From positions 1-42,756 of IMG/VR virus record IMGVR_UViG_2778261067_000008: a stretch of 42,756 nt of DNA; one strand, written 5' to 3'. This document shows positions 9,001 through 12,000 of this stretch, one piece after another. Each line of letters opens with the position of its first letter. Position 1 is the first letter of the stretch. The stretch comes from a virus (taxonomy: Duplodnaviria > Heunggongvirae > Uroviricota > Caudoviricetes). Position numbers: made by a program.

Positions 9001-12000
9001 AAAGACCATAAACCGGTGTTCGTTTTCGCTGGTAATTCCCCATTCGCGGTAAATCTGATTATCAGAAATTACCAGCAGTTTATCAGGTATCATTTGCAGT
9101 CGTTTGACGTAAATTTTATCATCAAAACCAAATACATATATACCATCCCCATCAAACTGATTGATACTGATATCAACGAAGATGAGATCTCCTGGCTCAA
9201 TGGTTGGACACATACTGTCCCCACGAACGTTGATAACTTTAATGTGATTTGCTGGTCGTCCACCAAACATCGATACAGCATTATCAGTTCTGTATTCAAT
9301 GGCATGAATCACATCAATGACATCACCGCCCTGGATAAGGCCATTTCCCGCACTGGCACTGACATCCAGCATTTCAATACGGAATACATCCTTCACCTGC
9401 GCAACATCCTCACTAATACTGTTTTTACATACAGTATTACTTTTGAGGTCTGAGGTAAAGAGATCAGCAATATCAACACCTAAGCTCCTGGCAATATTAC
9501 TCAGGGCTTGTTCAGTGAATTGTTTCTGCTTACCTGTTTCGAGGCGCGAGATATTTGCCGCATCCACTCCTATTGCTTCAGCGAGATCGGCGATTTTCAT
9601 GTTCTTCGCCTGGCGAAGTTGTCTGACTCGATTTCCTATGTTCATGCGTTTATTACATTTCTTTATTGCGCGTTAAGCAAATCAACTTGCGCAAAATATT
9701 TGCGTGAAATAATATGCTCATCACGCAATATGTGGAGGTTATATGCAATCACCATTACGGAATGTGCGTAAGGCGCACGGATTTACTTTGCAGCATGTTG
9801 CTGCGGGCGTTCAGGTCAATCCAGCGACGCTGAGTCGTATTGAAAGACTGGAACAAATTCCATCTATCGATCTTGCAGAACGTCTGGCCAATTTTTTTAA
9901 GGGTGAAATCAGCGAAATGCAGATTCTTTATCCGGCACGTTTTCAATCTAGCCAAAACCAGAATGGGTTTAAACCACAGGAACAGGAGGTAAGCCGTGGG
10001 TAAGCATCATTGGAAAGTGGAAAAACAACCTGAGTGGTACGTGAAAGCTGTCAGAAAAACTATCGCGGCATTGCCTGGGGGTTACGCTGAAGCTGCTGAC
10101 TGGCTGGATGTAACAGAGAACGCTTTATTCAACCGCCTTCGTGCAGATGGCGATCAGATTTTCCCGCTGGGATGGGCAATGGTTTTACAGCGCGCGGCTG
10201 GCACTCACTACATTGCGGATGCTGTCGCACAGTCTGCTGGTGGGGTGTTCGTATCGCTTCCTGAAATTGAGGAAGTAGAGAACGCCGATATAAACCAGCG
10301 CCTGCTGGAAGTCATCGAACAGATCGGGAATTACTCAAAGCAGATTCGTTCGGCAATCGAAGATGGGGTCGTGGAGCCACACGAGCAGACAGCAATTAAT
10401 GATGAGTTGTATCTGTCAATTTCGAAGCTCCAGGAGCATGCAGCACTGGTCTACAAAATCTTCTGCGCTCCAGAAAAGAGTGACGCCCGCGAGTGTGCAG
10501 CTCCGGGCGTCGTGGCGTTTTGTGTCTGTGGAGAAACTAACGCATGAACAGTTTAACGGCAAATAACCGTTTGTCGCAACAGCTGGTGGTCAGCGTCTCT
10601 GAACACCTGTTGTTACGGCATGAATGCAGATTACCAAATCACCTGGCTGTAAGTAACCACAGAGAACTTTACCTGACTGTGGGGGGCGAGTTGTGCAGGA
10701 ACTTAACCGCTGGTTTCGTGACGGAAGAGGGCTTTATGTTCATGTTATTCGTTGGGAACCAGAAACACAGCGCGTTATCTATCTTCGCAAAGACTACCCG
10801 CATGAGTGCTTTAGTCCTTTGTGGAAATTCAGGCGTGATTTTGTTGAGTGTGAAGGACCACCAGCACATTGATTCTGCCATTCCGGGACGTTACACTGTT
10901 CAGGCACCTTATAAAGCGGGTGCCGGGATTGGCGTCCTGAAATTGATTACTGAGCATAACCGCGCTCATGCGGTTTTTTCGTGTCATGAGCATTGCTACG
11001 CCCAAATTATGGTGGGGCGTACAGGGCCGACTTCGGTCGGGCCGGGTTCGGTAGTCTCCGGTAACGCCAACCCTGTACGTCTCACCACCTCTGTGATTGG
11101 CGTCCCATGTGGTGAGTTTTCTAAAAAACTGACTACCGGGGCTGTCACCATGACTACTCTCCCAACCCTCTCTCAACCTGAAATTGCCATCGTTGATGGT
11201 CAGGCTGTTACTTCTTCTTTGGCTGTTGCTGACTTCTTCTCTAAACGTCATGACGATGTTCTGAAAAAGATCCGCATTTTGGATTGTTCTCCAGAGTTTT
11301 GTGCCCGCAATTTTGCGGAGACATCAATTTTGGTACGCCAGCCCAACGGCGGTACTCGCAAACTTCCTTGCTATCAAATAACCCGCGACGGCTTTGCGTT
11401 TCTTGCTATGGGGTTCACGGGGAAACGTGCTGCCCAGTTCAAAGAGGCATACATCAATGCCTTTAACCAGATGGAGAAACAGCTTTCAAAGCCCTCTGTA
11501 CCGAGCGACGTTGCACATAACGCCAGCGTTCTCTATTCCTACATTTCATCAATTCATCAGGTCTGGTTGCAGCAGCTTTATCCCATGCTGGAAAAAGCTG
11601 AATCACCGCTGGCTGTAAGTCTGTATGACCGAATTAACGATGCGGCATTTCTTGCCCGTCTTATTCATTCGTCGCTGAACTCTTCAGAGGTAAGGGGGCG
11701 CAAATGATCCGGAATATTTTCAAACGATTTACCAATCAGACTTTCCGTTGTCCTCGCCCGGGTCAGTGGTACACCACGCCTGCAGGGCATGTTCTACGTG
11801 TTAGCCTGGTGGACCGTGAATGTCAGAAGGTGATTTGTGAACCGCTGGGCCGTAATTACCGCGTCAGTATGCCGCTTATAGCCTTTTGCTCCGGAAAAAA
11901 CATGAAGCATCTCGGAGGTGCAGCATGAGTATGGAGCTGATGGTTAAAGCGATGAAAATTCGAGTGGGTAATCCATTGCGAAAACTGGTTCTGATCAAGC

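What the first reader, a model, noticed from the sequence alone, without database searches (positions are those of the whole stretch)
9646..9742. Operator array with repeated TTGCG(C/T) half-sites between the repressor and cro-like genes
Three or four sites built from the same half-site, including the perfect palindrome TTGCGCAA, occupy the 97-bp divergent promoter region. This defines the immunity specificity of the prophage.
Basis: seen in the sequence. Interest (0 to 1): 0.35.

Follow-up and report, generated by a model that had tools for sequence, protein, structure and literature searches.

The report
Prophage repressor operators, 15-bp dyads
The repeated TTGCG motifs are real. They mark the on/off control region between a prophage's repressor and cro genes, an ordinary lambda-type switch, but the likely binding unit is a 15-bp dyad (TTGCG-N5-CGCAA) that also occurs outside the reported interval.

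Summary
The interval 9646-9742 is exactly the 97-bp gap between a 230-aa HTH+S24 repressor gene (8953-9645, minus strand) and an 86-aa HTH cro-like gene (9743-10003). It holds 5 of the window's 33 TTGCGY hits; no other 97-bp span holds more than 2.

Comparison with about 170 related loci (25 lineages below 90% identity, plus Yersinia and Cronobacter phages) shows that the conserved unit is a 15-bp dyad, (T/A)TGCG-N5-yGCA(A/T).
- Two full dyads lie in the gap. One (9666-9680) covers the inferred PRM -35. The other (9714-9728) covers the inferred PR -10 and start.
- The palindrome TTGCGCAA is part of an invariant ACTTGCGCAA (9685-9694) that is also the inferred PR -35.
- The TTGCGT at 9700 is fixed only in the E. 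coli/Shigella/Citrobacter lineage.
- Two more full dyads (8858-8872, 8882-8896) lie beyond the cI terminator and form an OL/PL-like pair.
- A degenerate dyad lies inside cro (9764-9778).

This immunity cassette is the mEp460/SfII/Stx2a_WGPS2/ST64B type, not the e14 type. I found no published operator description for it. No binding was tested, and all promoters are inferred. It is an ordinary lambdoid switch: a new member of a known kind.

The parts
8844..8849 (-). Inferred PL -10 hexamer (TATCTT on the minus strand).
   Evidence: The AAGATAA block sits 7-8 nt from the left operator in nearly all relatives. It lies 17 nt from the TTGCAT half-site at 8867-8872. Inferred; the consensus scan did not call it.
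8858..8872 (.). OL-like operator a, TTGCGCATTATGCAA. Its right half (8867-8872) read on the minus strand is TTGCAT, the inferred PL -35.
   Evidence: Exact TTGC-N7-GCAA match. Top weight-matrix score in the window, 20.8 bits. Present at the same place in relatives, with substitutions confined to the core.
8882..8896 (.). OL-like operator b, TTGCGAGATATGCAA, 24 bp from operator a.
   Evidence: 19.0 bits. The pair is conserved with 22-24 bp spacing in relatives.
8914..8931 (-). Hairpin followed by a T-run, immediately after the cI stop codon: the cI terminator.
   Evidence: Annotated as a putative rho-independent terminator at the equivalent place in SfII.
8953..9645 (-). cI-like repressor gene, 230 aa: N-terminal HTH_3 domain plus C-terminal Peptidase_S24 domain.
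   Evidence: Pfam HTH_3 E=1e-10 and Peptidase_S24 E=6e-19. Ala99-Gly100, Ser144 and Lys181 are invariant in the alignment; their roles as cleavage site and catalytic residues are assigned from general knowledge of LexA-type repressors.
9652..9657 (-). Inferred PRM -10 (TGTAAT on the minus strand). It puts the start at or 1 nt before the A of the cI ATG, giving a leaderless cI mRNA.
   Evidence: ATTACA is invariant in 25 representatives below 90% identity, 6-7 nt from the CAT of the start codon, while the bases between them vary. No Shine-Dalgarno sequence precedes the ATG. The start site is inferred.
9666..9680 (.). cI-proximal full operator ('OR3-like'), TTGCGCGTTAAGCAA. Positions 9675-9680 read on the minus strand are TTGCTT, the inferred PRM -35.
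   Evidence: 18.5 bits. TTGCG and GCAA are invariant in all representatives and the core is variable.
9685..9694 (.). Invariant ACTTGCGCAA. It holds the palindrome TTGCGCAA (two overlapping half-sites) and the inferred PR -35, TTGCGC (9687-9692).
   Evidence: Scores 2.0 bits at all ten positions in 25 representatives. CTTGCGCA is also kept in the Yersinia and Cronobacter phages. In this window neither 15-mer built on it scores as a full dyad: -2.5 and -6.6 bits.
9700..9705 (+). Lineage-specific orphan half-site TTGCGT inside the PR spacer.
   Evidence: Never varies in 33 distinct sequences of the window's clade, although 9695-9699 and 9706 do vary and 9699 shows all four bases. Absent in the other lineages.
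9710..9715 (+). Inferred PR -10 (TAATAT), 17 nt after TTGCGC.
   Evidence: Sequence. TAA and AT are invariant, and the 17-nt spacing has no indels in 25 representatives. It has only 7 of 12 consensus matches, so the scan did not call it.
9714..9728 (.). cro-proximal full operator ('OR1-like'), ATGCTCATCACGCAA (reverse complement TTGCGTGATGAGCAT). It overlaps the PR -10 and the predicted start near 9722.
   Evidence: One mismatch to TTGC-N7-GCAA. Scores 16.8 bits. Always lies 48 bp from the cI-proximal operator in all 13 loci first compared. ATGC and GCAA are invariant.
9743..10003 (+). cro-like gene, 86 aa, HTH_3, with a GGAGG Shine-Dalgarno sequence at 9735-9739.
   Evidence: It shares the recognition-helix core [NT]-[ILV]-S-R-[ILV]-E with cI.
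9764..9778 (.). Degenerate dyad GTGCGTAAGGCGCAC in cro codons 8-12. It is a near-consensus operator in more distant relatives.
   Evidence: Scores 5.5 bits here and 10-18 bits in relatives. Codon test: Leu8 is always TTG (51/51), Arg9 always CGN (74/74) and Ser11 always TCG (50/50), whereas Leu5/16, Arg6 and Ser3/17 use many codons.

Best explanation
This is the rightward control region (OR) of a lambdoid immunity cassette of the mEp460/SfII/Stx2a_WGPS2/ST64B type.

The 230-aa repressor has an HTH DNA-binding domain and a LexA-like self-cleaving domain. It most likely binds as a dimer to 15-bp dyads of consensus (T/A)TGCG-N5-(C/T/A)GCA(A/T).
- One full dyad (9714-9728) overlaps the -10 and start of the rightward promoter PR. 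Occupancy there shuts off cro and the lytic genes.
- One full dyad (9666-9680) contains the -35 of the leftward promoter PRM. That promoter appears to start at the cI ATG, so occupancy there would make the repressor limit its own synthesis.
- Two further full dyads (8858-8872, 8882-8896), just past the cI terminator, control a leftward early promoter PL in the same geometry.

In all three promoters the -35 hexamer is itself an operator half-site (TTGCxx).

The invariant ACTTGCGCAA in the middle is the PR -35 and at the same time a pair of overlapping half-sites. Together with the lineage-specific TTGCGT at 9700, it probably gives an additional repressor dimer, bound cooperatively, a foothold inside PR. 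That would make PR more tightly shut than PRM.

Cro shares the recognition-helix core and probably competes for the same dyads.

Shown here: sequence anatomy, clustering and conservation. Inferred: promoter and start-site positions, who binds, cooperativity, and the role of the central half-sites.
For: - Gene context: an HTH_3+Peptidase_S24 repressor and a divergent HTH_3 cro-like gene, followed by a Phage_CP76 (CII/YmfL-like) gene.
- Local excess of TTGCGY.
- The four best weight-matrix hits in 42.7 kb are the four dyads flanking cI (the matrix included these four sites).
- The two OR dyads sit at fixed offsets of +23 and +71 from the cI start in 13 loci.
- In 25 representatives below 90% identity, the dyad arms, ACTTGCGCAA, ATTACA and TAA.AT are invariant, while dyad cores and the PR spacer vary.
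- The same picture holds inside the window's own clade of 33 distinct sequences.
- The same architecture occurs in ST64B and in Yersinia and Cronobacter phages whose N-terminal domains are only 54% and 40% identical but keep the helix N-[ILV]-S-R-L-E.
- cI and Cro share S-R-x-E in the recognition helix.
- The OL pair and an AAGATAA block are conserved at fixed distance.
- Heteroimmune relatives carry different repeats with unrelated repressors: GGTACA-type in e14 and ACTAAGT-type in mEp460_4F5.
Against: - No binding data of any kind.
- The three promoters match the sigma-70 consensus only modestly (7-8 of 12), and the consensus scan called none of them.
- The cI-proximal dyad is at least as close to consensus as the cro-proximal one. 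Taken alone, that would shut PRM as readily as PR, so the explanation needs unproven help from the central half-sites, from the site in cro, or from OL.
- In this window the central elements do not form a recognisable full dyad.
- The weight matrix was trained partly on the sites it ranks.
- I found no literature on this operator type, but many subscription-journal papers were not searchable.
Confidence: 0.75

Rival explanations
1. There are only two operators in OR. The central TTGCGCAA and TTGCGT are promoter elements only (the PR -35 and spacer). They resemble half-sites because the half-site TTGCxx looks like a -35 hexamer, and the repressor does not touch them.
For: Under the dyad matrix, both 15-mers built on the octamer score below zero in this window. 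The octamer lies exactly 17 nt upstream of the conserved TAATAT. TTGCGT at 9700 is absent in most lineages.
Against: Ten consecutive positions (ACTTGCGCAA) are invariant. That is four more than a -35 hexamer needs, and they include the AA that completes the palindrome. In many relatives one or other 15-mer built on the octamer is a fair dyad: 8-14 bits, and 1 mismatch in the Yersinia and Cronobacter phages and in L009. TTGCGT is fixed in 33 distinct clade sequences while its flanks vary.
Confidence: 0.25
2. The layout is a lambda-like three-operator OR. A weak middle operator is built on the octamer, either 9680-9694 (centred at -42 of PRM, the position of lambda OR2) or 9687-9701 (centred at -28 of PR). 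It is filled cooperatively and may also activate PRM.
For: Moderate dyad scores at one or both positions in most distant representatives. 9687-9701 lies 21 bp from the cI-proximal operator, similar to the 22-24 bp OL spacing. The C-terminal domain is related at the DNA level to the c2/cI genes of P22-like phages; cooperative binding by P22-type repressors is from my own knowledge.
Against: In this window and its clade, the non-shared half of either candidate is unrecognisable. Candidate 9680-9694 overlaps the cI-proximal operator by 1 bp. Activation of PRM is pure analogy.
Confidence: 0.3
3. The motifs are bound mainly by another protein (Cro alone, the CII/YmfL-like protein, or a host factor), or they are a compositional accident.
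For: Cro has its own HTH. The everted CGCAAAATATTTGCG at 9690-9704 loosely recalls boxes of the LacI/PurR family (my own recollection, not tested).
Against: The clustering is far beyond chance. The motif co-occurs with the cI recognition-helix core across distant hosts. The same dyads recur next to the cI terminator, where a repressor-controlled PL is expected. The spacing of the everted repeat differs by one base from the PurR box as I recall it, and it exists in only one lineage.
Confidence: 0.05

Closest known systems
Phage lambda OR/OL switch (cI, cro, PR, PRM, PL)
   Same: Divergent cI and cro genes. HTH plus S24 autocleavable repressor. Dyad operators overlapping PR and PRM. A second operator cluster at a leftward early promoter beyond cI. 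An apparently leaderless cI message from PRM.
   Different: The repressor has no significant sequence relation to solved repressors of known specificity. The operator is a 15-bp TTGCG-N5-CGCAA dyad rather than lambda's 17-bp site. Only two full dyads are recognisable per cluster. The cI-proximal dyad is strong and covers the PRM -35. No operator is recognisable at a clear activating position in this window.
P22-type C2 repressors (P22-like Salmonella phages ST160, SE1, ST104, BTP1)
   Same: The C-terminal (S24) part of the gene is about 67% identical at the DNA level to c2/cI genes of P22-like phages.
   Different: The similarity does not extend into the N-terminal DNA-binding domain, so the specificity is expected to differ. 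P22 operator sequences were not compared here.
933W and HK022 variants of the lambdoid switch (from my own knowledge and PMC4587872)
   Same: 933W (strain EDL933) is described as having only two OL operators (PMC4587872), as seen here. HK022 has an extra operator set to the right of OR (own knowledge), which recalls the dyad inside cro.
   Different: The repressors and operator sequences are unrelated. The cro-internal dyad here is degenerate in this window, though strong in relatives.
e14 (ymfK/ymfT) and mEp460_4F5 immunity regions
   Same: Same gene order, and e14 shares the downstream ymfL-like gene.
   Different: The repressors are unrelated or nearly so: 23% identity for YmfK, and only the S24 motif for mEp460_4F5. 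Their intergenic repeats are different, GGTACA-type and ACTAAGT-type. They are heteroimmune cassettes.

Membership tests
Lambdoid cI/Cro immunity switch | Divergently transcribed repressor and cro genes separated by a short control region. | tested here: met
   cI at 8953-9645 (minus strand), cro at 9743-10003 (plus strand), with a 97-bp gap.
Lambdoid cI/Cro immunity switch | Repressor with an N-terminal HTH and a C-terminal LexA-like (S24) self-cleavage domain carrying an Ala-Gly site and a Ser/Lys dyad. | tested here: met
   Pfam HTH_3 and Peptidase_S24. A99-G100, S144 and K181 are invariant in 9 homologues. Their catalytic roles are assigned by analogy.
Lambdoid cI/Cro immunity switch | Repeated dyad-symmetric operators overlapping the two divergent promoters. 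| tested here: met
   Dyads at 9666-9680 and 9714-9728 overlap the conserved hexamers read as the PRM -35 and the PR -10. The promoters themselves are inferred.
Lambdoid cI/Cro immunity switch | A second operator cluster (OL) at a leftward early promoter. | tested here: met
   Dyads at 8858-8872 and 8882-8896 lie next to a conserved AAGATAA block, and the arrangement is conserved in relatives.
Lambdoid cI/Cro immunity switch | Three operators per cluster with graded affinity and pairwise cooperativity. | tested here: inconclusive
   Only two full dyads per cluster. The central octamer gives at best a weak third site in relatives and none in this window. Affinities cannot be tested with these tools.
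Lambdoid cI/Cro immunity switch | Repressor and Cro physically bind the operators and repress PR and PL. | not testable with these tools
   Needs EMSA, footprinting or reporter assays.
mEp460 (JQ182728) / SfII / Stx2a_WGPS2 / ST64B immunity type | Near-identical cI, OR and cro cassette. | tested here: met
   99.2-99.8% DNA identity to mEp460, PhiR47_1 and phiSTEC1575-Stx2k. About 96% to Stx2a_WGPS2/1447, 90% to SfII and 74% to ST64B, with the same operator layout.
e14 (YmfK/YmfT) immunity type | Repressor and cro homologous to YmfK and YmfT, with the same operator repeats. | tested here: not met
   23% identity over 170 residues to YmfK. No alignment to YmfT. The e14 gap carries GGTACA-type repeats.
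mEp460_4F5 / LLS immunity type (PMC12315714) | Repressor homologous to the mEp460_4F5 CI. | tested here: not met
   BLASTP E=0.016, limited to the S24 motif. The intergenic repeats are different.

The most novel reading that the evidence does not exclude
The switch may not be lambda-like in its logic. In the wider family three strong dyads sit at a nearly even 48-50 bp spacing: over the PRM -35, over the PR start, and inside cro at about +49. Every promoter's -35 is an operator half-site, and an invariant palindromic -35 lies between the first two dyads. This would fit a repressor oligomer that bridges or wraps non-adjacent sites, with plain negative autoregulation of cI, rather than adjacent pairwise cooperativity with positive autoregulation. 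It would also mean that repressors only 40-67% identical, from E. coli, Salmonella, Klebsiella, Citrobacter, Yersinia and Cronobacter phages, share one DNA specificity and could cross-repress one another.
Probability: 0.15. Interest if true: 0.55.

Novelty: new member of a known kind. Interest (0 to 1): 0.3.

Why it matters
This immunity cassette is common. The full cI-OR-cro region is present at 80% coverage or more in 1,040 of 5,426 complete E. coli genomes. It is carried by Shiga-toxin phages (Stx2a_WGPS2, Stx2a_1447, phiSTEC1575-Stx2k), the Shigella serotype-converting phage SfII and Salmonella ST64B.

A defined operator consensus would let immunity groups and repressor targets be predicted from sequence. 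It would also guide reporter or induction studies of toxin phages. It further predicts possible cross-immunity between phages of different genera.

Conceptually it adds nothing beyond the lambdoid paradigm unless the unusual layout (see the novel case) proves real.

Tried and rejected
1. Equating the region with e14 because the neighbouring gene is annotated ymfL. Rejected: the repressor, cro and repeats all differ.
2. Using the statement in PMC12315714 that the operator specificity of the LLS/mEp460_4F5 repressor is unknown. Rejected for this locus: mEp460_4F5 carries an unrelated repressor.
3. The high-scoring 15-mer at 536-550 as a distant operator. Rejected: it lies inside a 334-aa ORF, and the one-mismatch class is at chance level in the window, 30 observed against 31 expected.
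4. The only minus-strand promoter the scan called in the gap (TCCACA...TATTAT, 9736-9709). Rejected as PRM: its -35 region is not conserved.
5. Genome-wide avoidance of TTGCGY. It is depleted about 2-fold against a Markov model, but only at about the 10th percentile of hexamers, so this is unremarkable.
6. The central everted repeat CGCAAAATATTTGCG as a PurR/LacI-type box. Rejected from memory of that consensus: the spacing is one base longer, there is no central CG, and it exists in only one lineage.
7. Literature searches for an operator description (mEp460, SfII, ST64B, Sb38, TTGCGCAA, Stx2a CI). These found nothing relevant. The Alonso 2005 ST64B paper is not held.
8. The first viral-contig scan returned only relatives 96-100% identical. 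A second scan seeded with a Klebsiella homologue gave the needed diversity.
9. The solved-structure search gave no relative of known DNA specificity.
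Full report
**What is there.** The reported interval 9646-9742 is exactly the 97-bp gap between two divergent genes. 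On the minus strand, 8953-9645 encodes a 230-aa protein with an N-terminal HTH_3 domain and a C-terminal Peptidase_S24 domain. On the plus strand, 9743-10003 encodes an 86-aa HTH_3 protein. It is followed by a Phage_CP76 (CII/YmfL-like) gene at 9996-10547. Nine homologues of the repressor keep Ala99-Gly100, Ser144 and Lys181. By analogy with LexA-type repressors these are the cleavage site and the catalytic pair.

**Check of the observation.** TTGCGY occurs at 9666, 9687 and 9700 on the plus strand and at 9694-9689 and 9728-9723 on the minus strand. TTGCGCAA lies at 9687-9694. The whole window has 33 hits on both strands. Five lie in this gap, and no other 97-bp span has more than two. Only 1 of 300 Markov simulations reached five, although those simulations carried about twice as many hits overall.

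**Which phage.** The cassette is 99.2-99.8% identical to phages mEp460 (JQ182728), PhiR47_1 and phiSTEC1575-Stx2k. It is about 96% identical to Stx2a_WGPS2 and Stx2a_1447, 90% to SfII and 74% to Salmonella ST64B. Relatives also occur in Klebsiella and Citrobacter phages. The full cassette is present in 1,040 of 5,426 complete E. coli genomes.
- It is not the e14 immunity type. YmfK is 23% identical, YmfT does not align, and the e14 gap has GGTACA-type repeats.
- It is not the type of mEp460_4F5, whose repressor is unrelated.
- SfV, cdtI and Stx2c phages match only from about 9968 rightwards. The cI-OR-cro block therefore behaves as an exchangeable module.

**The real repeat unit.** A 15-bp pattern, TTGC-N7-GCAA, has four exact matches in the window. 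Three of them flank cI, at 8858, 8882 and 9666. The reverse complement of 9714-9728 is a one-mismatch copy. A symmetrised weight matrix ranks these four as the best sites in 42.7 kb, with the caveat that they were part of the training set.

Independent support comes from relatives.
- In 13 loci from E. coli, Shigella, Citrobacter, Pseudescherichia, Klebsiella, Buttiauxella and Trabulsiella (cI 67-96% identical), the two OR dyads lie at fixed offsets of +23 and +71 from the cI start.
- With 160 further viral contigs, I reduced about 170 loci to 25 representatives below 90% identity. In these, the dyad arms TTGCG/GCAA (9666-70, 9677-80) and ATGC/GCAA (9714-17, 9725-28) are invariant. So are ACTTGCGCAA (9685-94), ATTACA (9652-57) and TAA.AT (9710-15). 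The dyad cores and the stretch 9695-9709 are the least conserved.
- Inside the window's own clade (87 loci, 33 distinct sequences) the variable positions are again the dyad cores, the PR spacer and two -10 positions.
- A Yersinia phage and a Cronobacter phage have N-terminal domains only 54% and 40% identical. They keep the helix core N-[ILV]-S-R-L-E and show the same layout, for example TTGCGTTAACCGCAA ... CTTGCGCAT ... TAATATGCGTATAGCGCAT.

The consensus is (T/A)TGCG-N5-(C/T/A)GCA(A/T).

**Promoters (inferred).**
- PR: TTGCGC (9687-92), 17 nt, then TAATAT (9710-15), with the start near 9722. The cro-proximal dyad covers -9 to +6.
- PRM: TTGCTT (complement of 9675-80), 17 nt, then TGTAAT (complement of 9652-57). 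This puts the start on the A of the cI ATG. No Shine-Dalgarno sequence precedes that ATG, so the message would be leaderless as in lambda. The cI-proximal dyad covers -35 to -21.
- PL: two more dyads lie just beyond the cI terminator (hairpin 8914-8931). The half-site TTGCAT (complement of 8867-72) lies 17 nt from TATCTT (complement of 8844-49). This AAGATAA-N7/8-dyad-N7-9-dyad-terminator arrangement is conserved in nearly all relatives, with 22-24 bp between the two dyads.

In all three promoters the -35 is an operator half-site and the operator spans -35 to -21. These promoters match the sigma-70 consensus in only 7-8 of 12 positions, and the scan did not call them. The case rests on conserved hexamers at fixed spacing.

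**The central elements.** That is more than a -35 hexamer would require.
- In relatives, one or both 15-mers that use it as a half-site are moderate dyads. The one ending in the octamer (window 9680-9694) is one mismatch from consensus in L009 and in the Yersinia and Cronobacter phages. The one starting with the octamer (9687-9701) scores 8-12 bits in many lineages.
- In this window both score below zero.
- TTGCGT at 9700 lies in the family's least conserved stretch. Within the E. coli/Shigella/Citrobacter clade, however, it never varies, while its flanks do.
- Together with the octamer it makes the OR region a long imperfect palindrome centred at 9697.

My reading is that these are orphan half-sites inside PR that help an extra dimer bind, biasing repression towards PR. 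This is inference. A promoter-only reading remains possible.

**A site inside cro.** cro codons 8-12 carry GTGCGTAAGGCGCAC (9764-78). This site is weak here (5.5 bits) but near consensus in distant relatives (10-18 bits). Codon usage argues for constraint at the DNA level. Leu8 is always TTG, Arg9 always CGN and Ser11 always TCG, whereas the neighbouring Leu, Arg and Ser codons vary freely. Its role is unknown. It lies about 50 bp from the cro-proximal dyad.

**Who binds.** The cI recognition helix (A-N-I-S-R-L-E) is invariant in its key residues across the family. Cro shares [NT]-L-S-R-[IV]-E, so both proteins probably read the same dyads. No solved structure of a close relative exists.

**Comparison and novelty.** This is a lambda-type switch in every feature that could be tested. 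It differs in several ways: a different operator sequence, only two clear dyads per cluster, and a strong dyad over the PRM -35, which suggests simple negative autoregulation. I found no description of this operator in the searchable literature. One paper reports failing to find operators in some Stx2a phages, but I did not establish that those are of this type. I file it as a new member of a known kind, of modest interest.

**Second layer.** Rfam finds isrK and C4 antisense RNA at 10904-11092, just upstream of a Phage_pRha gene. This resembles antirepressor modules controlled by antisense RNA. Immunity may therefore not be defined by the cI operators alone.

Noticed in passing
window 10904-11707: Rfam hits to isrK (10904-10980) and C4 antisense RNA (11005-11092) lie directly upstream of a Phage_pRha regulatory protein gene. 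This looks like an antisense-RNA-controlled antirepressor module, a possible second immunity layer. The listed 387-aa ORF 10544-11707 runs across both RNAs and is probably over-extended at its 5' end.
   Followed up: partly
window 9643-9660: The cI ATG has no Shine-Dalgarno sequence. It sits 6-7 nt from an invariant TGTAAT hexamer, which implies a leaderless cI mRNA as for lambda PRM. The GCG next to the start codon is also fairly conserved. Together with ATTACAT it forms a weak dyad-like 15-mer (9644-9658, 5.4 bits).
   Followed up: partly
L010 (Pseudescherichia MAG), region upstream of cI: This locus keeps cI, both OR dyads and a good dyad (TTGCGCGTTGCGCAT) at the usual cro-internal position, but it has no cro ORF. 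It may be a prophage remnant or a domesticated repressor.
   Followed up: no
L070 (IMG/VR contig), OR region: This is the only clade member with a change at an otherwise invariant dyad position (ATGA instead of ATGC in the cro-proximal operator). It also has a change next to the cI start. It may be an operator mutant or a decaying prophage.
   Followed up: no
L004 (Stx2a_1447) 1652-2299: The deposited CI annotation starts at an internal Met (216 aa) and cuts off the conserved first helix. Other records and the Pfam match support the 230-aa start.
   Followed up: partly
window 8416-8836: About 420 bp with no convincing ORF lies between the inferred PL start and the first leftward gene (the YfdP/YfdQ-like, DUF2303 region). 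This is a long leader of unknown function. No Rfam family matched it.
   Followed up: no
window ~9968: Homology to SfV, cdtI and Stx2c phages begins only near the 3' end of cro and continues into the ymfL-like gene. This marks the right-hand mosaic boundary of the immunity module.
   Followed up: partly
whole window: TTGCGY and related TTGCxx hexamers occur about half as often as a first-order Markov model predicts. Many hexamers are equally depleted (about the 10th percentile), so this is probably not avoidance of operator-like sites.
   Followed up: yes
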